From IMG/VR virus record IMGVR_UViG_2713896784_000032: a DNA stretch of 15,041 nt. One strand, written 5' to 3'. Source of the DNA: a virus. Taxonomy: Duplodnaviria > Heunggongvirae > Uroviricota > Caudoviricetes. The position numbers and the translations under genes were made by a program. Below, in pieces: positions 1,008 through 15,041 of this stretch; position 1 is the first letter of the stretch; each line of letters begins with the position of its first letter. The notes beneath the pieces were generated by a model that saw only the letters and a list, made by a program, of their open reading frames with translations, was not told the DNA's origin and searched no databases.

Positions 1008-1355
1008 TTACTTATCACATAAATCAAATGCAGCCTTAGTGACATCCCCCAGACTCTTTTTTAACCCTGGGGCGGCATCATTATCTAGCCAAAATGGATT
1101 ATTGTTATCTAACGGTAACGCACCAAATGTTTTACCTTTTATTCGAGCCAAACCTGTAAGTGCATATAACTTATTATCGTCAAAATTCATCACATAAGGA
1201 TTACCATCAAGACACTGTAATTGAACCTCATCAGTATTAAATGGCCATACCCCATTGAAACTCTCACGTTCAATAGTTTTAAAAGGCATTGCGACGGCGG
1301 AAAAAGAAAACATAGATAAAAAAGTAACTAATAGTTGAACCTTTTTTACTTTCAT
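1008..1355 (-). CDS. Small secreted protein, DUF2511/YebY-like (tentative family assignment)
   Basis: 115-aa ORF with an N-terminal signal-peptide-like segment (MKVKKVQLLVTFLSMFSFSAVA) and two cysteines (one near the middle, one near the C-terminus). The WPFNTDEVQLQC ... KKSLGDV ... LC pattern resembles what I recall of the E. coli YebY family. Shine-Dalgarno-like GAGGT lies upstream of the start. Confidence 0.55.
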   Translation of the reverse strand: MKVKKVQLLVTFLSMFSFSAVAMPFKTIERESFNGVWPFNTDEVQLQCLDGNPYVMNFDDNKLYALTGLARIKGKTFGALPLDNNNPFWLDNDAAPGLKKSLGDVTKAAFDLCDK

Positions 1356-1384
1356 ATCATTACCTCAATTTAGCTCAAGTAAGA

Positions 1385-2035
1385 TTACAAATTAAAAAAC
1401 GCCCTAGAAATGACACCGCCTACCAAAACCCCTACGCAGATAAAGAATATTATTTCTTTTGGATAAAGTCGGATTAATTCTGAAGCACGAAGTCGGACTT
1501 CTGGTAAGGTCGAACTCTCTATGTGGCTTGATGCCGATTGTTGCTCTAACCACGACAATGCAGACTGTAACTGAGAACGAGTAAGATCGTTTAAACGTCC
1601 TGTACCGAAATTGATATGGCAATACCGCAGAAGTTTTTGTCGAAGTCCACAGTCTTCACTGTTACGTAGTAATAAACTTACAAGAGCCTTACAGGCATCA
1701 TGATCTTTACATCGCTCAAGCATTGCATGCAGAAAACTCTCCGCTGTTTTATATTGATTTACTGTCATATCATCAATACCAGCTACACCAATCTCCGCAT
1801 GTACTTTTTGCCAAATAATAAACGCTTCAGTATTGCTAGCTTCTGCAATAGCAGCAACCAAGCTATTTAGCTCCTTACGCTGAGCCTTAAGCAAAGGGCG
1901 ATCGTCATCATCATTATTCGAAGGGATTGCGATATTGACGGTATGAGAACCATCATATCGCTCTATCTGAATATTCTTTTCGTGAAAATCACGCCCAGCA
2001 ACGCGATTGTTTGAACCGTTTGAGTTGACGGCCAT
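1385..2035 (-). CDS. Hypothetical tail-anchored membrane protein (cytoplasmic domain plus single C-terminal transmembrane helix), unknown function
   Basis: 216-aa ORF. Strong Shine-Dalgarno (GGGAGG) 5 nt upstream of the ATG, 15 nt after the stop of the upstream HTH gene. C-terminal hydrophobic stretch IIFFICVGVLVGGVISRAFF. An acidic DDDD run near the N-terminus. N-terminal motif NNRVAGRDF is shared with the C-terminus of the upstream HTH protein. Confidence 0.6.
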   Translation of the reverse strand: MAVNSNGSNNRVAGRDFHEKNIQIERYDGSHTVNIAIPSNNDDDDRPLLKAQRKELNSLVAAIAEASNTEAFIIWQKVHAEIGVAGIDDMTVNQYKTAESFLHAMLERCKDHDACKALVSLLLRNSEDCGLRQKLLRYCHINFGTGRLNDLTRSQLQSALSWLEQQSASSHIESSTLPEVRLRASELIRLYPKEIIFFICVGVLVGGVISRAFFNL

Positions 2036-2050
2036 GTCACCTCCCTACTA

Positions 2051-2455
2051 TCACCTACCCTTAGTTTCGTTATAGTCACGACCAGCGATACGGTTATTAC
2101 CACCAGAAATATTTAACTCACGTCCTGATGGCTGAGTTTCCTTTTCACTGATCGCACCTTTTAAAGCCCCAATCACCGCGTTTTTCACATCTAACGAAGC
2201 TGCTCGAAAGCGAGTAATCAATTCCTGCTCATCATCGTTATAAGTTTCAGGTGAGTGAATTCCCAACACAACATACTGAACATCAAGGCCAAAACGAGAC
2301 AGCGCTGCCAAATACGCAGCATCAGGAAAGCTATCTCCTTTCTCATATCTAAGCTGAGTTAGCTTTTTGACTCCACCAATGTCGCTCATGGCAACTTGAC
2401 TAAGTCCCAATCTTTCCCTTTCCTCACGCAACCGCCGACCAATATCATTTTTCAT
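2051..2455 (-). CDS. XRE-family helix-turn-helix transcriptional regulator; candidate immunity repressor (position equivalent to P2 C)
   Basis: 134-aa ORF. N-terminal region RLREERERLGLSQVAMSDIGGVKKLTQLRYEKGDSFPDAAYLAALSRFGLDV fits a Cro/C1-type HTH. First gene of the leftward operon, divergent from the Cox-like gene, as in the P2 C-int arrangement. Confidence 0.75.
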   Translation of the reverse strand: MKNDIGRRLREERERLGLSQVAMSDIGGVKKLTQLRYEKGDSFPDAAYLAALSRFGLDVQYVVLGIHSPETYNDDEQELITRFRAASLDVKNAVIGALKGAISEKETQPSGRELNISGGNNRIAGRDYNETKGR

Positions 2456-2530
2456 ACAAAAACCTTGACAGGTATCTTTTTTGATACCAAAATGATTTCA
2501 CGAGCTATTAGATGATCACAATATACCACT
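2456..2530. promoter_or_regulatory. Divergent promoter/operator (switch) region between the repressor-like gene and the rightward early operon
   Basis: 75-bp intergenic region between divergent starts. Consensus -35 hexamer TTGACA at 2465..2470 on the plus strand, immediately followed by a perfect palindrome GGTATC-N6-GATACC (2471..2488). A further GATACC copy lies at 2549..2554. Exact -10 elements are not assigned with confidence. Confidence 0.4.
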
Positions 2531-2737
2531 ATGAAACAAGTTCTTCACGATACCAGATCACGCATTCCGCGTAACACCGCCACAGGTCCAAGACTGGCAC
2601 TTCGGCTGTCCCTCGAGGAGCGAGCCGTCATTGATGAAATGGCAGCTAAAGAACAACGCTCATCCTCTAACATGGCGCGCATGATCTCCCTTCGCGGCCT
2701 AGAGCTAACCCAGAAAGAACAAAACAAATCTTCCTGA
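2531..2737 (+). CDS. Small ribbon-helix-helix-like DNA-binding protein (tentative)
   Basis: 68-aa ORF. The segment RLALRLSLEERAVIDEMAAKEQRSSSNMARMI looks like a beta-strand followed by a helix, as in CopG/Arc/MetJ-type proteins. No clear Shine-Dalgarno upstream, so the call is uncertain. Confidence 0.4.
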   Translation: MKQVLHDTRSRIPRNTATGPRLALRLSLEERAVIDEMAAKEQRSSSNMARMISLRGLELTQKEQNKSS

Positions 2738-2753
2738 TCAGGAGGCTAGTGGG

Positions 2754-2957
2754 ATGTCAGGTATAACCATCAATATCAATGTGAATGCCCCCAATGTATC
2801 CCTGCAGAAATATGCAGAGATAACAGGTATCCCTCTTAATACATGCAAAAAGATGTTGGCTGACGGTCGAATTATTATCCGCCCCAAACGCGCCAAAATG
2901 GAAAAGCCTGAAGTAAACCTTGTGGCGATGTTAAAAGACGCTTTGGCTAACAGCTAA
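2754..2957 (+). CDS. Cox/Apl-like small HTH protein (candidate excisionase and lysogeny-lysis switch regulator)
   Basis: 67-aa ORF with a strong Shine-Dalgarno (AGGAGG, 2740..2745). The segment VSLQKYAEITGIPLNTCKKMLADGRI resembles the HTH of P2 Cox as I recall it (IPYQEFAKLIGKSTGAVRRMIDKGKL). Its position divergent from the repressor matches P2/186 organisation. Confidence 0.55.
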   Translation: MSGITININVNAPNVSLQKYAEITGIPLNTCKKMLADGRIIIRPKRAKMEKPEVNLVAMLKDALANS

Positions 2958-2978
2958 AACAATGAACAGAGCACCATC

Positions 2979-3329
2979 ATGAAAAAAAACGCTAATAATC
3001 CATACTCCAAATTTCGTAATGGCGTAGAACGCCATGTACACCACGTCGCTACCAGTGCATCACGTAGTAACAGTCGCTATAACCTGAACGAGACGCATGC
3101 AACACCGGATGGCCACGCTGTAAAACAAATCGGCGAACATGCCTGGCTGATTGAGAAAGCTGGAATCGTGGTCCACAAATGCCCACGCAATCCGTTTACC
3201 GGGAACCGCATTTTTGCATTGAACTGCGGCGACAATCACTTCGGGCAGGATTTCACATTATACGAAGCACTTCGCACGGTTGATCGTCTGCTTCGCGGGC
3301 AAAGTTTTATTAAACAGGCTGATTTATAA
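2979..3329 (+). CDS. Hypothetical protein (early operon)
   Basis: 116-aa ORF, same strand and tightly packed with neighbours. No recognisable domain by eye. Confidence 0.45.
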   Translation: MKKNANNPYSKFRNGVERHVHHVATSASRSNSRYNLNETHATPDGHAVKQIGEHAWLIEKAGIVVHKCPRNPFTGNRIFALNCGDNHFGQDFTLYEALRTVDRLLRGQSFIKQADL

Positions 3330-4514: not shown

Positions 4515-4718
4515 ATGGCAATTAAGCATTTTCCCGTCGTTCGCTTTACCTCCAGAGGGCGCGAATACGAGGTCGACGAACGCCTGATTACCACTATCGA
4601 CAAACATCGTTCGGAAAAGGATGCACACCACATCTACCTCACTGACGGCACTTACTTCTGCGCCACCAACGTGGCGCGAGTAAATCTTATCCGACAGGTA
4701 CAGGAGCCACGCAGATGA
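4515..4718 (+). CDS. Hypothetical protein (early operon)
   Basis: 67-aa ORF with AAAGGGGG upstream. Its stop overlaps the next start (ATGA). Confidence 0.45.
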   Translation: MAIKHFPVVRFTSRGREYEVDERLITTIDKHRSEKDAHHIYLTDGTYFCATNVARVNLIRQVQEPRR

Positions 4719-4981
4719 CCATTCTGGACTACATCGCTACTCATCCGGGGTGTAGCGGCGGAGAGATCGCCGCAGCACTGAATACCCCAACCACAGCCAT
4801 TAATGCTGAGTTACGCCGACTTTGGCGCGGCGGCTTAGTCATCAGAACAAACCGCAGCACAGGTGGTCGCGCTCGCAAAACAGGAGGCCAGGCTTCTTAC
4901 CACGTAAACCCGATGCCGTTCGGGTGTAGCAATCCACTTACTCACATGTTTAACCAGCTACTGAAGGAAGCCAGAGCATGA
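4715..4981 (+). CDS. Hypothetical protein, possibly a winged-helix-like DNA-binding protein
   Basis: 88-aa ORF, start overlapping the upstream stop, AGGAG upstream. The segment ATHPGCSGGEIAAALNTPTTAINAELRRLWRGGLV has a helix-turn-helix-like character. Assignment is tentative. Confidence 0.45.
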   Translation: MTILDYIATHPGCSGGEIAAALNTPTTAINAELRRLWRGGLVIRTNRSTGGRARKTGGQASYHVNPMPFGCSNPLTHMFNQLLKEARA

Positions 4982-5277
4982 GCACCATCAACCACCAGAA
5001 GCTACGCGAACTGGCATTTGCCCTGCAACGAATGGCAACGCCTCAAAAATTACTGGCATTTCGCGCAATGCTCTCGCCGTCTGCTGTGCTGGCACTGCTG
5101 GATCAGCTGGAGCACGCCAGAACCACGGCTCCTGCCATTCGCCTCACGCTCCATCATGAAATCGCTGATTTCTGCGCAACGCTGGGGGCACCTGGCGAAC
5201 CGGAAACGCCGGAAGCAATGCAGCAAGAGCTGCTGCAACGCATCGATAACGTTTTTGATTTTTTTCTGAACCAGTAA
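4978..5277 (+). CDS. Hypothetical protein (last gene of early operon segment)
   Basis: 99-aa ORF, start overlapping the upstream stop (ATGA), followed by a non-coding structured region and terminator. Confidence 0.45.
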   Translation: MSTINHQKLRELAFALQRMATPQKLLAFRAMLSPSAVLALLDQLEHARTTAPAIRLTLHHEIADFCATLGAPGEPETPEAMQQELLQRIDNVFDFFLNQ

Positions 5278-5400
5278 GAAACCAGAACATGCACACACAA
5301 AAAAACCGCTTGCCATGCCGCAATCGGTCAGGTTACATTTCCGCTGCACCTCATAAAACGGGTGCCGGGATTCTCAACCCGATACAGAGCAAAGCGCATA

Positions 5401-5420
5401 ACCGCGCTAGCGGTTTTTTT
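5401..5420 (+). terminator. Rho-independent terminator-like hairpin plus T-run
   Basis: ACCGC-GCTA-GCGGT hairpin (5401..5414) followed by seven T residues (5414..5420), downstream of the 4978..5277 gene. Confidence 0.5.
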
Positions 5421-5599
5421 GTGCGTACTGTATTGCCACGTCTTTTTCGCGTCAGAATTATGGCGGGGCGTACGGGGCCGACTTCGGTCGGGCCGGATTC
5501 TTTGCTCTCCGGTGTTGAGAACCCTGTACGTCTCGCCACCCCGAGATTCTCAACTCTGGATGGTGAGTTATTTCTATCACCGAGCAAAGAGGCCACACC

Positions 5600-5830
5600 A
5601 TGGCAGACCGCAAACAGCACCGCGCTATCGCGGAGCGTCGTCACATCCAGACTGAAATCAACCGCAGACTTTCCCGCGCATCACGCGTCGCGCAAATCAT
5701 GCACATCAATATGCTGCATGAGCGCAGCCACGCACTATCAAACATTTATTCCGCCTCTGTTTTCAGCTATCTGGCGGATGATCTGCACGAGTTTCAACAG
5801 CTCATCCAGCAGCAAAACAAACTCCATTAA
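5600..5830 (+). CDS. Hypothetical small basic protein
   Basis: 76-aa ORF with AGAGG 7 nt upstream of the ATG. Protein-like composition (MADRKQHRAIAERRHIQTEINRRL...). Preferred over the overlapping 205-aa low-complexity ORF 5289..5906. Confidence 0.4.
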   Translation: MADRKQHRAIAERRHIQTEINRRLSRASRVAQIMHINMLHERSHALSNIYSASVFSYLADDLHEFQQLIQQQNKLH

Positions 5831-9097: not shown

Positions 9098-9173
9098 AGC
9101 GCGCACAAAACAGGCAAAAGCGGGATTTAAAAATCCTGTAACCGATTAATTAATCAACATAAGGAAAAGCGAC
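9030..9173. promoter_or_regulatory. Candidate promoter/centromere-like (parC-like) region upstream of parM
   Basis: Cluster of palindromes and repeats: ACGGGA-N8-TCCCGT (about 9047..9066), near-palindrome GGATTTAAAAATCC (9123..9136), AT palindrome ATTAATTAAT (about 9144..9153), and recurring CAAAAAAC/CAAAACAG. Overlaps the 3' end of the rep gene. No clean iteron array was identified. Confidence 0.3.
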
Positions 9174-10133
9174 ATGAAAATTTGTATCGACGACGGCTCC
9201 ACCAACATCAAGCTGGCATGGACTGAGAACGGCGAACGCCGCAACGCCATCAGCCCGAACAGCTTCAAGTCGGAATGGTCTGCGCCATTCGGTGGCACGC
9301 AGCCCGCGAACTACATGCTTGATGGCGTGCGCTATGGTTTTGATCCGGTCAGCGATCGCTTTGTCCAGACGACCGACACGCAATACCAGTACAGCGATGT
9401 GAATGTAATTGCCATTCATCACGCGCTGGTCAAATCAGGCATCACACCACAGGAAGTGGATGTGGTTGTCACCCTGCCACTGAGCGAGTATTTCGATACA
9501 AACGCACAGCCGGACATGGCCAACATCAACCGCAAAAAAGCGAACGTCATGCGCCCGGTGGAGTACCAGAACGGCGAAGCATTCACTATCCGTAACGTAC
9601 GGGTTATGCCTGAATCCATTCCTGCTGGCTTTAAGGCACTGGCTGACATGAGTCCGTTTGAATCCCTGCTGATTGTGGATTTGGGCGGAACCACGCTGGA
9701 TGTGGCAAAGGTTCAGGGGCAACTGGCAGGTATCAGCCAGGTGTTTTGCGATCCACACGTAGGCGTTTCTCTGATGGCCGATGCCGTACTGTCGGTGATG
9801 GCCACTAACGGTATGCGCACCAGTCACCACATCGCCAATACCATTATCGAACATCGCCATGATGAAGCCTGGCTGCGCCAGCACATCCACAATGACGCGC
9901 ATTACGCCAGCCTGATGGCGGTTATTCGTGAAAAGGAAGAAACACTGAAACAACGCGTGATCCGCGCGCTGGCGGTTTTTTCGGGTTACGGGCGGGTGAT
10001 GGTTGTCGGTGGCGGGGCGGAGATTGTGGCAACCGCTATCCGCGAAGCCTGCGGAGTTAATGCGACTTTCATCGCGGACGGGGTGCCACAGTTTGCTCTG
10101 GTTAATGGGTTGTACGCAATGAACAAGGAGTAA
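9174..10133 (+). CDS. parM: Actin-like plasmid segregation ATPase ParM (StbA)
   Basis: 319-aa ORF. N-terminus MKICIDDGSTNIKLAW plus SPNSF, YSDVNVIAIHHAL, VMPESIPAG, LIVDLGGTTLD and VVGGGAE motifs align closely with plasmid R1 ParM/StbA as I recall it. Shine-Dalgarno AAGGA upstream. Confidence 0.85.
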   Translation: MKICIDDGSTNIKLAWTENGERRNAISPNSFKSEWSAPFGGTQPANYMLDGVRYGFDPVSDRFVQTTDTQYQYSDVNVIAIHHALVKSGITPQEVDVVVTLPLSEYFDTNAQPDMANINRKKANVMRPVEYQNGEAFTIRNVRVMPESIPAGFKALADMSPFESLLIVDLGGTTLDVAKVQGQLAGISQVFCDPHVGVSLMADAVLSVMATNGMRTSHHIANTIIEHRHDEAWLRQHIHNDAHYASLMAVIREKEETLKQRVIRALAVFSGYGRVMVVGGGAEIVATAIREACGVNATFIADGVPQFALVNGLYAMNKE

Positions 10134-10137
10134 ACCA

Positions 10138-10452
10138 ATGACGACACCAACCAGACGGATAAGTTTCTATCTGAAGCCCGCCGCCGTCAAGAGTGAACAG
10201 GAGGCGTGCAATTACCTCGATAGCCTGCCAGCCTCCGAACGCAGCCGCGCGCAACGCGCGGCCTTTCTGGCTGGGCTAGCACTCATAAAGCGCAACCCAG
10301 CATTTGCCTACTGGATGGCCGAATGGCCAGAGGACAACCTCCCCTTCAATACCGTTAGCATCAAGGAAACATACCAGGCTAATCAGCCTAGCGGAGTTGA
10401 ATGCAATTTTTATAAAATAAAAAAGAATATTCAGACCTTATTCCCAGAATAA
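10138..10452 (+). CDS. parR: Partition adaptor ParR (StbB)-like DNA-binding protein
   Basis: 104-aa ORF starting 4 nt after the parM stop, with a strong Shine-Dalgarno (AAGGAG). N-terminal region RISFYLKP...YLDSLPASERSRAQRAAFLAGLAL resembles R1 ParR (DSIPQGERSRLNRAALTAGLAL). Confidence 0.7.
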   Translation: MTTPTRRISFYLKPAAVKSEQEACNYLDSLPASERSRAQRAAFLAGLALIKRNPAFAYWMAEWPEDNLPFNTVSIKETYQANQPSGVECNFYKIKKNIQTLFPE

Positions 10453-10546
10453 TCTGATAATTGTATGTGAACTAATAAAATACATTGTCATACGAGTCAC
10501 CTGTACTCCCTGTTGATGCCAGCAGTTTTGCTTCTTTTAGTCGCTC

Positions 10547-10596
10547 NNNNNNNNNNNNNNNNNNNNNNNNNNNNNNNNNNNNNNNNNNNNNNNNNN
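10547..10596. other. Run of 50 ambiguous bases (N), probable gap or masked placeholder
   Basis: Directly visible in the sequence; lies inside the IS3-family remnant. Confidence 0.99.
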
Positions 10597-10886
10597 ACAT
10601 AGACGAAGCCCTGCCATGTGCTGACGTAAGTAAAATCAGCCACCCACAGCTGGTCAGGACGTTCTGCCACGAACTGACGGTTTACGCGGTCGCCTGCGGA
10701 AACGGCTTTCCGGCTGACGGTAGTACGGACCTTTTTACCCCGGAGAACACCGGCAAGTCCCATAACCGCCATGAGGCGCGCCACTGTACATCTGGCCACC
10801 CTGATACCTTCGCGTAACAACTGGCGCCAGACTTTACGCACACCGTACACCTGATGATTTTCATCGTATACGCGCTGTATCTCTCT

Positions 10887-10936
10887 NNNNNNNNNNNNNN
10901 NNNNNNNNNNNNNNNNNNNNNNNNNNNNNNNNNNNN
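10887..10936. other. Run of 50 ambiguous bases (N), probable gap or masked placeholder
   Basis: Directly visible in the sequence; lies at the OrfA/OrfB junction region of the IS3-family remnant. Confidence 0.99.
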
Positions 10937-11053
10937 AAGCGGAAGCCTGGCGAAGGATATCGTTACTGCGGCGCAGTTCACGATTTTCACGTTCCAGCCA
11001 TAAAGTTATGTTCCTGACGTATGTATTCGTCCCGCAGGAATCAACCAACTGAT

Positions 11054-11443
11054 TTATCTGAATTTATCATGCCCCTCAACTCTGATTTTATTCATCTTGT
11101 TTACCGAATCGGGTATATCTGATAACTGTCCCGATAAGACTTTTTGTTTCGCCAGCATAATCTCTTTTTCAAGCTTTTGAAGTTCTTTTATATAGTCATT
11201 CTTCCCTTCTTCATCAGCCGGTGAAATGCTCTCAGGAAGACGCTTCATTGACTCATCTACAGCATCATCCATTCTGTCAAGAGCTTCAAGAAGCTCCTTT
11301 TTATCCATTGATGACTGAAGTACACTCATATTCCTTGCAAGAACTTGCATGCTTTCATCAAGTTCTTCTGCCACTGTAATCCCCCCACACAAAAAATATA
11401 ATGCCATACCACAGCTGATTATAACTTTATTGCTTTTCTGCAT
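11054..11443 (-). CDS. cybC: Soluble periplasmic cytochrome b562 family protein
   Basis: 129-aa ORF with a signal-peptide-like N-terminus. The mature region EELDESMQVLARNMSVL ... VEGHDKFR aligns with E. coli cytochrome b562 (ADLEDNMETLNDNLKVI ... NAYHQKYR), including the Met and C-terminal His heme ligands. Shine-Dalgarno GGAG 5 nt upstream. Lies downstream of the catalase-peroxidase on the same strand. Confidence 0.75.
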   Translation of the reverse strand: MQKSNKVIISCGMALYFLCGGITVAEELDESMQVLARNMSVLQSSMDKKELLEALDRMDDAVDESMKRLPESISPADEEGKNDYIKELQKLEKEIMLAKQKVLSGQLSDIPDSVNKMNKIRVEGHDKFR

Positions 11444-11455
11444 AATTTCTCCTTC

Positions 11456-11478
11456 ATGAGGGAGGTGCCCTCCCTCAT
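11456..11478 (-). other. Intercistronic stem-loop between the catalase-peroxidase and cytochrome b562 genes
   Basis: Perfect 10-bp stem (ATGAGGGAGG / CCTCCCTCAT) with a 3-nt loop in the 43-nt gap between the two genes. On the transcribed (minus) strand it is not followed by a U-run, so it is more likely an mRNA structural element than a terminator. Confidence 0.35.
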
Positions 11479-11486
11479 CAGTTTTA

Positions 11487-13712
<2,226 letters not shown>

Positions 13713-13873
13713 TTAAGGGAAATTCGCATGTTGTATACAAAAGTCAACTTTATTGATGCAACAGGATATACCTATTGCTGGGATAGATACTACAGACAAA
13801 AAATACTAAGGGGTTCCAAGCCGCAACTGACGATGCCGTTGAGTGCTGCGCAGACCTGAATATTCCCTTCTTT

Positions 13874-14059
13874 GTGGATGTCAGAAACAAAAAGCTGGTC
13901 TTCTGGTTTGTACGTGTTGATGACGAAGGGTATCCTGAAATAGCCCGCTGCACGGAGCGGGAGTTTGCGACCATTCTTGCCGGTATCAGCGCCGGCGGCA
14001 TGTACTGCCCGGAGTGTGGCACGGTTCACTGGCCGGACGGAGTTCCCCCGCCCTTCTGA
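13874..14059 (+). CDS. Small ORF translationally coupled to the IS91-family transposase gene (possible IS91 accessory ORF)
   Basis: 61-aa ORF containing CPECG. Its TGA stop (14057..14059) overlaps the ATG (14059..14061) of the downstream transposase reading frame. IS91 is known to carry a small ORF upstream of tnpA; homology could not be verified by eye. Confidence 0.3.
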   Translation: MDVRNKKLVFWFVRVDDEGYPEIARCTEREFATILAGISAGGMYCPECGTVHWPDGVPPPF

Positions 14060-14460
14060 TGCTTCCCCGTTTTGCCGACATTTTTCAGCAGGGAAACCGC
14101 TGGCTTAACTGGCTGGAGAAACAACCGGAAGGTTCAGTGCGTCCGGTAGTCATTGAGTCTGTGACAAAAATCATGGCCTGCGGGACCACGCTGATGGGGT
14201 ACACACAGTGGTGCTGTTCATCTCCGGACTGCAGCCACATAAAAAAGGTCTGCTTCCGGTGTAAAAGTCGCTCCTGCCCGCACTGCGGAGTGAAGGCTGG
14301 CGCACAGTGGATACAGTATCTGCTGAGTCTGGTTCCCGACTGTCCGTGGCAGCATATTGTGTTCACACTTCCCTGCCAGTACTGGTCCCTGGTGTTCCAC
14401 AACCGGTGGTTACTGGCAGAGATGAGCCGCATTGCTGCGGATGTGATACAGGAAATCTGC
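14059..14460 (+). mobile_element. IS91-family (rolling-circle, HUH) transposase gene, N-terminal fragment only (3'-truncated)
   Basis: Translation MLPRFADIFQQGNRWLNWLEKQ...KIMACGTTLMGYTQWCCSSPDCSHIKKVCFRCKSRSCPHCGVKAGAQWIQ...QHIVFTLP has the N-terminal zinc-binding CxxC...CxxC region typical of IS91/ISCR transposases. Homology ends near 14460, where IS3-family sequence begins. Confidence 0.7.
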
Positions 14461-15041
14461 CGCCAGGCAGATGTGCGACTACGAACTCGAACCACAATCT
14501 GCCAGTTGCGCCAAATCTGCTGAACCAGACGTTCGCTCCTGCAGCACCAAATCAGGTCTGGGTGGCGGACCTGACGTATGTTGCCACACAGGAGGGATGG
14601 TTGTACCTCGCTGGCATCAAAGATGTTTATACGTGCGAAATTGTCGGCTACGCCATGGGAGAGCGCATGACAAAAGAGCTGACAGGTAAAGCCCTGTTTA
14701 TGGCGCTCAGGAGCCAGCGCCCACCTGCCGGGCTAATCCACCACTCTGATCGAGGTTCACAGTACTGCGCATACGATTACCGGGTCATACAGGAGCAGTT
14801 TGGTCTGAAAACATCAATGTCGCGTAAAGGTAACTGTTACGACAACGCTCCGATGGAAAGCTTCTGGGGAACGCTGAAAAATGAGAGCCTGAGCCACTAT
14901 CGTTTTAATAACCGGGATGAAGCCATCTCAGTAATACGGGAATACATTGAGATTTTCTACAATCGTCAGCGTCGTCACTCTCGTCTGGGGAATATCTCCC
15001 CGGCAGCCTTCAGGGAAAAATATCATCAGATGGCTGCTTAA
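14460..15041 (+). mobile_element. IS3-family transposase OrfB, C-terminal catalytic (DDE) portion; 5'-truncated element running to the window end
   Basis: Translation ...TTNSNHNLPVAPNLLNQTFAPAAPNQVWVADLTYVATQEGWLYLA...HHSDRGSQYCA...SRKGNCYDNAPMESFWGTLKNE...YNRQRRHSRLGNISPAAF shows the IS3-family DDE motifs. Stop codon TAA at 15039..15041. No OrfA or OrfB N-terminus upstream (IS91 sequence instead). Confidence 0.8.

What the first reader, a model, noticed from the sequence alone, without database searches (positions are those of the whole stretch)
1385..2455. Repressor-like HTH protein and the downstream membrane-anchored protein share a conserved NNR[IV]AGRD[YF] peptide at opposite termini
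The HTH protein ends ...NISGGNNRIAGRDYNETKGR and the next gene begins MAVNSNGSNNRVAGRDFHEKN.... The two coding stretches are about two-thirds identical at the nucleotide level by my count, with most differences at third codon positions. That points to selection on the peptide rather than a recent DNA duplication. A shared terminal motif on a regulator and a co-transcribed membrane protein could be a common docking, cleavage or degradation signal that couples the effector to the repressor state. The motif contains Ala-Gly, the bond cleaved in LexA/CI-type repressors, but no S24 peptidase domain is present, so any cleavage would need a partner. I do not recognise this arrangement as a described system.
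Basis: seen in the sequence. Interest (0 to 1): 0.6.

Follow-up and report, generated by a model that had tools for sequence, protein, structure and literature searches.

The report
Repressor and membrane protein share peptide
In this E. coli O157 P2-like prophage, and in many unrelated prophages, the lysogeny repressor ends with the same ~18-residue peptide that begins the membrane protein encoded next to it, and the two copies co-evolve, which suggests an undescribed physical link between a phage repressor and the cell membrane.

Summary
The 134-aa HTH repressor (2051-2455, -) ends with LNISGGNNRIAGRDYNE. The next gene (1385-2035, -) begins VNSNGSNNRVAGRDFHE. No shuffle of the two sequences reached the observed alignment score.

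The locus is the immunity region of prophage Sp13/CP-933T. The 216-aa protein has a disordered N-terminus, a helical Flk_N domain and a C-terminal membrane anchor.

The pairing recurs in P2-like and Mu-like prophages of Proteobacteria. The repressor's C-terminal tail resembles the N-terminus of the downstream small membrane protein in 45 of 51 repressor-anchored loci and in all loci anchored on the membrane protein. The peptide differs between lineages but stays matched within pairs (0 of 20,000 permutations). Codon identity is at background, so selection acts on the peptide.

Both copies lie in termini that AlphaFold2 predicts as disordered, are rich in Asn and Gly, and are poor in Leu, Pro and Lys. 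This layout matches amyloid-signalling motif pairs (BASS; Bab/Agp), but here it sits on a repressor and on membrane anchors.

Best reading, inferred: the two peptides pair directly and couple the repressor to the membrane partner. LexA-like Ala-Gly cleavage is not supported. I found no description in the searched literature.

The parts
2051..2455 (-). Immunity repressor of the prophage: XRE-type HTH protein, 134 aa. Residues 1-102 are folded and residues 103-134 form a disordered tail.
   Evidence: Pfam HTH_31/HTH_3. PHROG transcriptional regulator/repressor families. Divergent from the Arc-like and Cox-like genes. AF2 pLDDT is 80-90 for residues 1-102 and below 50 for 103-134.
2066..2116 (-). 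C-terminal copy of the shared peptide: repressor residues 114-130, LNISGGNNRIAGRDYNE, with the core at 2072-2098. It is followed by a basic end, TKGR.
   Evidence: Conserved as [IV]N[VI]SG..NR[IVA]AGRD[YF][NH]E.KK in about 50 of the 120 listed homologues.
2036..2050 (-). 15-nt spacer between the two genes: TAG TAG GGAGG TGAC. It holds two further in-frame stop codons after the TGA stop, and a GGAGG ribosome-binding site at 2040-2044.
   Evidence: Read from the sequence. No terminator-like site in 900-2800.
1385..2035 (-). 216-aa tail-anchored membrane protein. Its order is shared peptide, acidic linker, Flk_N helical domain, then a C-terminal transmembrane helix.
   Evidence: phrog_5825 E 8.5e-103. 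NCBIfam Flk PRK10715 E 8e-16 over residues 37-166, below the family cut-off. PF27202 Flk_N precomputed on homologues. AF2 model.
1979..2029 (-). N-terminal copy of the shared peptide: residues 3-19, VNSNGSNNRVAGRDFHE, with the core at 1985-2011.
   Evidence: N10, R11, G14, R15, D16 and E19 are invariant in 18 homologues of 58-84% identity. AF2 pLDDT is below 50.
1931..1954 (-). Probable degenerate second pseudo-repeat of the peptide core: residues 28-35, DGSHTVNI. More divergent homologues have IGRDIVNI or VGRDLVNI here.
   Evidence: A second core-like element 17-18 residues after the first is found in 119 of 127 long-form family members.
1520..1900 (-). Flk_N-type all-helical cytoplasmic domain, residues 46-172.
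1394..1462 (-). C-terminal transmembrane helix (tail anchor), residues 192-214.
   Evidence: AF2 helix 192-214. A hydrophobic C-terminus is conserved in the family. Flk is described as a C-terminally anchored cytoplasmic protein (PMC13344023).
2444..2530 (.). Divergent control region between the repressor gene and the early (Arc-like/Cox-like) operon. It holds a promoter-like site TTGACA-17-CAAAAT (2465-2493, +) overlapped by a 19-nt inverted repeat (2444-2462 / 2478-2496), which is a candidate operator.
   Evidence: These are pattern matches only.
2531..2957 (+). Early lytic-side regulators: Arc-like repressor (2531-2737) and Cox-like excisionase/repressor (2754-2957). Context for the switch.
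   Evidence: phrog_3431 and phrog_575. Annotation of phage 520873.
1..1355 (-). Downstream genes of the lysogenic operon: a DUF2511 secreted protein (1008-1355), which occupies a variable cargo slot, and the tyrosine integrase (1-1002).
   Evidence: Pfam. Related loci carry different genes at the cargo position, while the HTH and Flk_N genes stay constant.

Best explanation
The shared peptide is a homotypic interaction module. The repressor's disordered C-terminal tail and the disordered, cytoplasmic N-terminus of the tail-anchored membrane protein carry the same Asn/Gly-rich, strand-prone peptide of about 18 residues. I propose that the two copies pair with each other as a beta-zipper or, by analogy with amyloid-signalling motifs, as a templated cross-beta assembly. 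The pairing would physically couple the lysogeny repressor to a partner at the inner membrane. My preferred direction of control is that the membrane protein is the upstream part. It carries the motif at its N-terminus, often in two pseudo-repeats, as sensors and nucleators do in amyloid signalling. When it clusters or changes state, it would capture and sequester repressor at the membrane, lowering free repressor and favouring derepression. This would be an induction route that does not depend on RecA-mediated cleavage. Shown here: the peptide pair exists, is terminal, is predicted disordered, is conserved, co-occurs and co-varies at the protein level across unrelated prophages and across different repressor and membrane-protein families. 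Inferred: direct binding, the beta or amyloid nature of the contact, and the direction and outcome of control.
For: 1. Significance in the window: score 62, reached by none of 5,000 full-length or 20,000 termini shuffles.
2. Conservation in both families.
3. Co-occurrence. All 9 genome loci found with the Flk_N-family alignment have an HTH regulator with the tail directly upstream, though the motif is degraded in three endosymbiont remnants. Of 51 repressor-anchored viral loci, 45 have a downstream partner whose N-terminus aligns with the tail at score >=30; 3 are weaker and 1 locus is truncated. All non-redundant loci anchored on the membrane protein have the upstream HTH with the tail.
4. 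Co-variation. The peptide changes between lineages but stays matched within pairs. Examples: QIFNGDISGQFAGNQIIN / QEFNGTAQGQFSSRDIIN in a Mu-like Pectobacterium prophage; FHGAVSGGVAARDIINNPG / FQGNVDGGVAGRDIVNQAPG; NRVAGHTF / NRVAGHTY. The summed cognate score is 1535 against 1118 +/- 57 for permuted partners, reached in 0 of 20,000 permutations. In the subset that lacks the NRxAGRD type it is 409 against 281 +/- 25, again 0 of 20,000.
5. No DNA copying: 41% same-codon use at identical residues in cognate pairs against 36% in non-cognate pairs, and no DNA repeat was detected.
6. The peptide is a portable terminal module. Of the unique occurrences of N-R-[IVM]-A-G-R-D-[YF] in IMG/VR, 42 are N-terminal, 9 are C-terminal and about 5 are elsewhere. 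The carriers include several HTH families and several unrelated small membrane proteins with 1-2 transmembrane helices.
7. Both copies lie in AF2 low-confidence termini next to well-folded domains, as expected for a motif that folds on binding.
8. Composition and pair statistics match published amyloid-signalling motifs. Asn is enriched 3.5-fold and Gly 2-fold; Leu, Pro and Lys are depleted; the median shared length is 18 aa at 56% identity. The BASS description gives about 25 aa, enrichment of Q, N, G, V and I, depletion of K, P and L, and 43-56% identity for tested pairs. The genes are collinear with gaps of -3 to +35 nt, as in BASS pairs. The membrane protein often carries two pseudo-repeats.
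9. The tail-anchor topology places the N-terminal peptide in the cytoplasm with the repressor.
10. Sp13 is induced by mitomycin C although its repressor has no peptidase motif, and the mechanism is stated to be open (PMC2669165).
Against: No binding, aggregation or localisation data exist, and a complex prediction could not be run. The peptide matches no curated motif family in Pfam. The published BASS profiles could not be compared. Type-A motifs contain conserved Arg and Asp, and Gln, Val and Ile are not enriched, so this is not a textbook amyloid composition. Within the NRxAGRD type alone, co-variation is weak (600 of 20,000 permutations reach the observed value). Both proteins are made constitutively from one operon, so an uncontrolled interaction would always be on; a trigger has to be postulated. 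The prophage also carries a classical candidate induction route, an epsilon-like antirepressor behind a C4 antisense RNA, which might explain mitomycin C induction without the peptide. Two repressor-anchored loci (L091, L094) show no matching partner. The direction of control is an analogy, not a result.
Confidence: 0.4

Rival explanations
1. Direct pairing, but with control in the opposite direction, like a toxin-antitoxin or abortive-infection module. The membrane protein would be an effector that self-assembles through its N-terminal peptide (pore, exclusion or lysis-timing function). The repressor's look-alike tail would cap and restrain it. When the repressor is lost or inactivated, by prophage loss, induction or attack by a foreign antirepressor, the membrane protein would assemble.
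For: The gene order, an HTH protein with a disordered C-terminal tail followed by a small protein with a tiny gap, is the usual type II antitoxin-toxin layout (own knowledge; the HTH hits to MqsA/HipB-type antitoxin models are weak). The partner 'bodies' are diverse small proteins with 1-2 transmembrane helices, and only membrane anchoring is constant. In characterised amyloid-signalling pairs the membrane-targeting protein is the effector. The repressor carries one copy of the peptide and the membrane protein often two. Co-variation is explained equally well.
Against: Neither protein has a hit to a known toxin or defence family; the only PADLOC matches are weak HTH-region matches. Flk, the only studied relative, is a regulatory lock and not a toxin. 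The large conserved cytoplasmic Flk_N domain looks like a binding domain rather than a pore former. The gene is intact in hundreds of O157 genomes, but that does not discriminate. No toxicity data exist.
Confidence: 0.25
2. Common handle for a third factor. Both peptides would be recognised by the same co-evolving protein, such as a phage antirepressor, an adaptor, or a protease like ClpXP, Lon or FtsH. The repressor and the membrane protein would then be inactivated or degraded together on induction.
For: Terminal disordered peptides are typical degrons and docking sites. Repressor tails end in Lys/Arg clusters (KK, KKNK, RRRKTK). By my own recollection these resemble a class of C-terminal ClpX recognition signals. 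Antirepressor specificity could drive diversification of the tail. Sp13 carries an epsilon-like derepression gene.
Against: It needs three-way co-evolution across P2-like and Mu-like phages, and no conserved third gene was seen next to the pairs. Host proteases are conserved, so they would not demand lineage-specific peptides. P4 epsilon-type antirepressors are absent from the Mu-like loci examined.
Confidence: 0.2
3. Evolutionary relic without function: a junction duplication from gene fission or fusion, module-boundary recombination, or gene conversion between neighbouring sequences.
For: In the window the two ORFs are in the same frame, separated only by three stop codons and 12 nt. Phage genomes are mosaic.
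Against: Same-codon use is at background and there is no DNA repeat. The peptide is conserved under divergence of the rest of both proteins. Cognate similarity exceeds non-cognate similarity, which independent decay from one ancient duplication cannot produce. The frame relation is not conserved across loci; gaps run from -3 to +35 nt. No fused HTH-Flk_N protein was seen among the hits.
Confidence: 0.03
4. LexA/CI-like processing at the Ala-Gly bond of the motif by a trans-acting partner after SOS induction.
For: Ala-Gly is present in both window copies. Sp13 is mitomycin-C-inducible.
Against: There is no S24 domain. Ala-Gly is replaced by Ser-Gly, Ala-Ser, Ala-Ala, Ser-Ser and Ser-Ala in family members. 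The site lies 10-12 residues from the termini, so cleavage would not separate domains.
Confidence: 0.02

Closest known systems
Amyloid-signalling motif pairs: fungal HET-S/NWD2, bacterial BASS1-10 (Dyrka et al., bioRxiv 10.1101/2020.01.06.895854) and E. coli Bab/Agp with BASS11 (bioRxiv 10.1101/2024.11.07.622273)
   Same: A short motif of about 20-25 aa sits at the C-terminus of one protein and at the N-terminus of the protein encoded by the adjacent collinear gene, with a tiny intergenic gap. Cognate pairs are about 45-60% identical. The motif is rich in Asn/Gly, poor in Leu/Pro/Lys, and lies in otherwise disordered termini. One partner can carry pseudo-repeats. The motif is attached to different protein 'bodies'. 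One partner is membrane-directed. Bab/Agp also sits in E. coli prophages.
   Different: There is no NLR/STAND or TPR-GreAB-PIN sensor, and no Bell/HeLo/TIR death effector. The C-terminal carrier is a prophage immunity repressor. The N-terminal carrier is a small membrane protein of 118-340 aa, here Flk_N plus a tail anchor. Hosts are unicellular Proteobacteria. The motif sequence matches no curated motif family. Amyloid formation is untested. The presumed output is control of lysogeny, not cell death.
Flk (Fluke/RflH) of Salmonella and E. coli
   Same: It shares the Flk_N helical domain and the C-terminal membrane anchor with a cytoplasmic orientation. Flk acts through protein-protein contacts as a lock on the flagellar export switch (PMC13344023).
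   Different: Chromosomal Flk proteins are 320-430 aa, have two Flk_N repeats and start with a Pro-rich MQPxSGP... sequence that lacks the peptide. The phage protein scores 58 bits against an equivalog cut-off of 353. It is also common in non-flagellated hosts such as Klebsiella.
Type II toxin-antitoxin modules with XRE-HTH antitoxins
   Same: An autoregulating HTH protein with a disordered C-terminal tail is followed closely by a small partner gene. The tail is expected to fold on the partner.
   Different: In these modules the tail does not resemble the toxin's own terminus. No known toxin family is present here. The HTH protein is the prophage master repressor.
Membrane sequestration of transcription factors (for example Mlc by PtsG; own knowledge)
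   Same: A soluble repressor is controlled by capture at the inner membrane by a membrane protein.
   Different: Those systems use globular domain contacts, not a shared co-varying terminal peptide, and they are not phage switches.
Non-cleavable P2/186-type immunity systems with antirepressors (P4 epsilon, 186 Tum, P1 immI C4/Ant)
   Same: The same genomic position, and a repressor without a peptidase domain. The window holds an isrK/C4 RNA module plus an epsilon-like gene.
   Different: None of these systems is described with a repressor tail repeated on a downstream membrane protein.

Membership tests
Amyloid-signalling motif pair (BASS/FASS type) | The same short motif at the C-terminus of one protein and the N-terminus of the product of the adjacent gene | tested here: met
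   for the window. for more than 60 non-redundant related loci.
Amyloid-signalling motif pair (BASS/FASS type) | Collinear adjacent genes with a very short gap or an overlap | tested here: met
   15 nt in the window. Gaps of -3 to +35 nt in related loci.
Amyloid-signalling motif pair (BASS/FASS type) | Motif of about 20-25 aa, cognate identity about 43-56%, enriched in N/G/Q/V/I and depleted in K/P/L | tested here: inconclusive
   Median 18 aa and 56% identity. N is enriched 3.5-fold and G 2-fold; L, P and K are depleted. Q, V and I are not enriched, and R/D are conserved.
Amyloid-signalling motif pair (BASS/FASS type) | The N-terminal carrier is an NLR/STAND (or TGP) sensor; the C-terminal carrier is a cell-death or immune effector (Bell, HeLo, TIR, CHAT...) | tested here: not met
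   The carriers are an HTH repressor and small membrane proteins. There are no defence-family hits beyond weak HTH matches.
Amyloid-signalling motif pair (BASS/FASS type) | Sequence match to a described motif family (HET-s/HRAM, sigma, PP/RHIM, BASS1-11) | tested here: inconclusive
   Ten terminal peptides gave no meaningful Pfam hit at E<=10; the single match was a chance-level scorpion antimicrobial peptide family at E 0.12. BASS1-11 profiles were not available to compare.
Amyloid-signalling motif pair (BASS/FASS type) | The motif forms cross-beta fibrils, templates its partner and propagates like a prion | not testable with these tools
   AF2 monomers only show disorder.
LexA/lambda-CI type self-cleaving repressor (peptidase S24) | C-terminal S24 domain with a Ser/Lys dyad | tested here: not met
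   No S24 hit. Residues 103-134 are a disordered tail. [quoted passage not shown]
LexA/lambda-CI type self-cleaving repressor (peptidase S24) | Conserved Ala-Gly (or Cys-Gly) scissile bond in the inter-domain linker | tested here: not met
   Ala-Gly varies to SG, AS, AA, SS and SA in homologues, and it lies at the extreme termini.
Flk (flagellar biosynthesis regulator, NCBIfam PRK10715 equivalog) | Flk_N domain plus a C-terminal membrane anchor | tested here: met
Flk (flagellar biosynthesis regulator, NCBIfam PRK10715 equivalog) | Full-length equivalog score (>=353 bits), about 330 aa with two Flk_N repeats | tested here: not met
   58 bits and a single domain in 216 aa. Chromosomal Flk-like representatives differ at the N-terminus and in length.
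Type II toxin-antitoxin module | The downstream gene encodes a recognised toxin whose activity is neutralised by the HTH protein | not testable with these tools
   No toxin family was recognised. Toxicity needs an experiment.
P2-like prophage immunity region | An int-proximal repressor gene divergent from or facing a cox-type gene, in a Peduoviridae genome | tested here: met
   97.9% identical to Escherichia phage 520873 (Peduoviridae, Xuanwuvirus), and 99.9% identical to the O157:H7 prophage next to yecA.

The most novel reading that the evidence does not exclude
The peptide pair is a functional amyloid-like (prion-type) signalling motif, wired here to a transcription switch rather than to a death effector. 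A membrane-anchored nucleator would template the C-terminal tail of the prophage master repressor into an inactive, self-propagating assembly. That would give temperate phages of Proteobacteria, both P2-like and Mu-like, an all-or-none, RecA-independent induction or commitment switch that reads the state of the cell membrane.
Probability: 0.25. Interest if true: 0.92.

Novelty: new variant of a known kind. Interest (0 to 1): 0.78.

Why it matters
Textbook control of lysogeny has two routes: repressor self-cleavage and soluble antirepressors. A repressor coupled to a membrane protein through a self-matching, co-evolving terminal peptide would be a third route. It offers a concrete, testable candidate for how prophages with non-cleavable repressors sense their host; Sp13 of E. 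coli O157 is one such prophage, and its induction mechanism is stated to be open.

If the contact is amyloid-like, it would extend amyloid signalling from cell-death effectors to transcription factors, and from multicellular bacteria and defence islands to the core switch of common enterobacterial prophages.

The module is compact (two termini of about 20 aa), portable across protein families and lineage-specific. That also makes it attractive as an orthogonal protein-tethering part.

Tried and rejected
- Complex prediction. 
- Motif-only database search. It was replaced by a degenerate DNA-pattern census of IMG/VR.
- Locus retrieval with the broad Flk_N alignments A4 and A5 failed, because no stretch was conserved enough. 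The narrower A6 worked.
- PADLOC, Pfam and NCBIfam gave no defence, toxin or peptidase assignment.
- A LexA box was sought as an SOS link. The search found 5 matches at one mismatch or fewer against 4.5 expected, none placed upstream of the epsilon-like gene.
- Literature. No paper combined amyloid signalling with repressors or prophage HTH proteins, and none contained the motif strings in this context. The review of P2-like regulatory regions does not mention the gene.
- Rejected readings: read-through or fusion of the two ORFs (three stops, and the frame relation is not conserved); recent DNA duplication or gene conversion; LexA-type cleavage.
Full report
**What the locus is**

The left 10 kb of the window is the immunity and early region of the P2-like prophage of E. 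coli O157:H7 (Sp13 / CP-933T), integrated next to yecA. Bases 1000-2960 are 99.9% identical to hundreds of O157 chromosomes, with matches in 525 of 5,426 complete E. coli genomes. They are 97.9% identical to Escherichia phage 520873 (Peduoviridae, Xuanwuvirus).

On the minus strand the gene order is as follows:
- HTH repressor (2051-2455)
- 216-aa protein (1385-2035)
- DUF2511 secreted protein (1008-1355)
- integrase (1-1002)

Arc-like and Cox-like genes are transcribed divergently. The two genes of the finding are 15 nt apart, a GGAGG site precedes the second ATG, and no terminator-like site lies in 900-2800. Co-transcription is therefore likely, though inferred.

**Check of the observation**

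The sequences and coordinates are correct. The core NNRIAGRDY / NNRVAGRDF is encoded at 2072-2098 and 1985-2011, with 19 of 27 nucleotides identical. Only 2 of the 7 identical residues use the same codon.

The similarity spans 17 residues (LNISGGNNRIAGRDYNE against VNSNGSNNRVAGRDFHE) and scores 62. No shuffle reached that score, in 5,000 full-length shuffles or 20,000 shuffles of the termini.

**Anatomy of the two proteins**

*Repressor.* It is an XRE-type HTH protein. AF2 gives a confident fold for residues 1-102 and pLDDT below 50 for residues 103-134.

*The 216-aa protein.* It belongs to phrog_5825. It carries a Flk_N domain: PF27202 on its homologues, and an NCBIfam Flk match at E 8e-16 that is far below the equivalog cut-off. 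AF2 predicts three parts:
- residues 1-41: disordered
- residues 46-172: helical, pLDDT about 80
- residues 192-214: a terminal transmembrane helix

This is a tail-anchored protein whose N-terminus faces the cytoplasm, as described for Flk. Both copies of the peptide therefore lie in flexible termini in the same compartment.

**Conservation and co-occurrence**

In 18 homologues of the 216-aa protein (58-84% identity; Escherichia, Klebsiella, Serratia, Erwinia and others), N10, R11, G14, R15, D16 and E19 are invariant. About 50 of the 120 listed repressor homologues end in [IV]N[VI]SG..NR[IVA]AGRD[YF][NH]E.KK.

All nine genome loci retrieved with the Flk_N-family alignment show the order HTH, then Flk_N protein, then variable cargo, then integrase. 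In most, both proteins carry the peptide. In three endosymbiont prophage remnants it is decayed.

**The pairing extends beyond P2-like phages**

More distant repressor homologues have different Gly/Asn-rich tails. Two of them were traced to their contigs (Pectobacterium and Gilliamella). Both sit in Mu-like prophages, with an rve transposase and DUF3102. Each is again followed directly by a membrane protein whose N-terminus mirrors that particular tail:
- Pectobacterium: QIFNGDISGQFAGNQIIN against QEFNGTAQGQFSSRDIIN (a Flk_N protein)
- Gilliamella: GQISAGNIYNN against EQVAGENIINV (a 152-aa protein without Flk_N, with two hydrophobic stretches)

**Counts from independent samplings**

| Sampling | Result |
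|---|---|
| 51 diverse viral loci retrieved with the repressor family | 45 have a downstream partner aligning to the tail at score >=30; 3 weaker; 1 locus truncated; 2 without a match |
| Loci retrieved from the membrane-protein side | Every non-redundant case has the upstream HTH with the tail |
| Unique occurrences of N-R-[IVM]-A-G-R-D-[YF] in IMG/VR (DNA-pattern census) | 42 N-terminal, 9 C-terminal, about 5 elsewhere |

One locus, L120, has three consecutive carriers. The first two share the unusual variant AGHTF / AGHTY.

In the census, the N-terminal carriers include several unrelated small membrane proteins, such as a zinc-ribbon protein with two transmembrane helices and others of 140-187 aa with two transmembrane helices. 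Each lies just downstream of an HTH regulator that carries the C-terminal copy. These regulators belong to more than one HTH family.

The constant features are therefore a repressor tail, an N-terminal copy of it, and membrane anchoring. Flk_N itself is not constant.

**Co-variation and its cause**

For 31 non-redundant pairs, the summed cognate score is 1535 against 1118 +/- 57 for permuted partners (reached in 0 of 20,000 permutations). For the 11 pairs outside the NRxAGRD type it is 409 against 281 +/- 25 (0 of 20,000). Within the NRxAGRD type alone the excess is weak (600 of 20,000 reach the observed value).

If the two copies were decaying independently from one ancient duplication, a tail would be no closer to its own partner than to partners from other lineages. 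The excess therefore means concerted evolution.

Gene conversion is not the cause. At residues identical between the two copies, the same codon is used in 41% of cognate comparisons against 36% of non-cognate ones. No DNA repeat is detected either. Selection keeps the two peptides alike.

**Nature of the peptide**

A gapless register unites the two sequence types:
- ..[IV]x[VS]xGxxNR[VI]AGRD[YF]xE..
- ..QxFxGxVxQVA[AG][GR]D[IV]xN..

The shared regions have a median length of 18 aa and 56% identity. Asn is enriched 3.5-fold and Gly 2-fold. Leu, Pro, Lys and Met are depleted.

In 119 of 127 long-form family members, a second core-like element follows 17-18 residues later, for example IGRDIVNI.

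The Flk_N family is small, with 134 clusters at 50% identity among 1.84 billion representatives. Chromosomal Flk proteins start MQPxSGP..., have two Flk_N repeats, and lack the peptide.

No Pfam family matches the peptide.

**Comparison with what is known**

The layout is the one that defines amyloid-signalling motifs: fungal HET-S/NWD2, the bacterial BASS families, and the experimentally shown Bab/Agp abortive-infection pair of E. coli prophage hotspots. The following features agree:
- the motif at the C-terminus of one protein and the N-terminus of the adjacent gene product
- collinear genes with tiny gaps
- pair identity near 50%
- Asn/Gly-rich, Leu/Pro/Lys-poor composition
- pseudo-repeats in one partner
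- attachment of the motif to varied protein bodies
- disorder in the monomer

Two defining components are missing. There is no NLR or TGP sensor, and there is no death effector. The carriers are a master repressor and membrane anchors. Amyloid formation could not be tested. I therefore do not file the pair as a member. I say it may work like one.

**Mechanism**

I commit to direct homotypic pairing of the two peptides, which couples the repressor to the membrane partner. My preferred direction is membrane protein to repressor: capture and sequestration, leading to derepression. Confidence is 0.4.

Sp13 is induced by mitomycin C although its repressor lacks a peptidase motif, and the authors call the mechanism unresolved (PMC2669165). 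The prophage also has an isrK/C4 antisense RNA module in front of an epsilon-like derepression gene. That is a competing explanation for induction.

The rivals are:
- the reverse direction, in which the repressor tail caps a membrane effector in the manner of a toxin-antitoxin or abortive-infection module (0.25)
- a shared handle for a third factor (0.2)
- a relic of duplication (0.03)
- LexA-like Ala-Gly cleavage (0.02)

The last is contradicted by the variable Ala-Gly dipeptide and the absence of an S24 domain.

**Novelty**

Searches of the held literature gave nothing for the motif strings. They gave nothing for Flk with prophage repressors, and nothing for amyloid signalling with HTH proteins or repressors.

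Among 50,697 deposited phage genomes, only phage 520873 (present as two records, with the gene broken and unannotated) and three Ralstonia phages encode a relative of the 216-aa protein. The system has therefore escaped the well-studied phages.

I rate it a new variant of a known kind: the paired terminal signalling-motif architecture, applied to a lysogeny switch.

Noticed in passing
window 5346-5830: An isrK Hfq-binding RNA (5346-5420, 63 bits) and a C4 antisense RNA (5456-5543, 78.5 bits) lie directly upstream of the 76-aa epsilon-like 'derepression protein' gene (5600-5830). This looks like a P1 immI-like antisense-controlled antirepressor module inside a P2-like prophage, and it is a candidate for the unexplained mitomycin C induction of Sp13.
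   Followed up: partly
window 1008-1355 (-); L004-L006, L009 at about 4640-5500: The slot between the Flk_N gene and the integrase gene is a variable cargo position. It holds a DUF2511 secreted protein here and unrelated genes of 102, 244 and 292 aa in related prophages, while the repressor/Flk_N pair stays constant.
   Followed up: partly
window about 10485-15041: The right part of the window is pO157 plasmid DNA (katP catalase-peroxidase, cytochrome b562, IS3- and IS91-family transposases). It is joined to the prophage through an IS element that contains masked bases (runs of X in translations). No complete E. coli genome holds 9100-14300 contiguously. This is either an assembly chimera at an IS copy or an IS-mediated cointegration.
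   Followed up: partly
window 2036-2053: The repressor ORF and the next ORF are in the same reading frame, separated by three consecutive stop codons (TGA TAG TAG) and 9 further nt. The frame relation is not conserved in related loci.
   Followed up: yes
L120 1600-3142: Three consecutive genes carry the peptide: an HTH regulator (..NRVAGHTFNERKG), a 154-aa membrane protein (MSIQVEGNNNRVAGHTYNE..) and a Flk_N protein (..NRVAGRDFQE). The first two share the rare HT variant. One repressor may therefore serve two partners.
   Followed up: partly
repressor tails in P0121-P0226; window 2054-2065: Almost all repressor tails end in a Lys/Arg cluster right after the peptide (KK, KKNK, RRRKTK, GKKKK; TKGR in the window). 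The membrane-protein copy is instead followed by an acidic linker (NNDDDD). The purpose is unknown; possibilities are a protease tag, or membrane or DNA contact.
   Followed up: no
L001 (NC_049344.1) 1039-3065: In the deposited genome of Escherichia phage 520873, the Flk_N gene matches only in three pieces and is not annotated, and the integrase is split into two CDS. These are likely sequencing frameshifts or real decay.
   Followed up: no
window 2444-2496: A 19-nt imperfect inverted repeat (ATCATTTTTCATACAAAAA / TTTTTGATACCAAAATGAT) overlaps the start of the repressor gene and the promoter-like site of the early operon. It is a candidate operator.
   Followed up: no
P0350 (270 aa) and phrog_245: A Flk_N-like stretch also occurs behind an N-terminal region that looked to me like a Rha/antirepressor-type domain (by eye, not checked by a search). 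The 216-aa protein has a weak match to the PHROG 'anti-repressor Ant' family (E 0.0045). This hints that Flk_N-type helices occur in antirepressor-like proteins.
   Followed up: no
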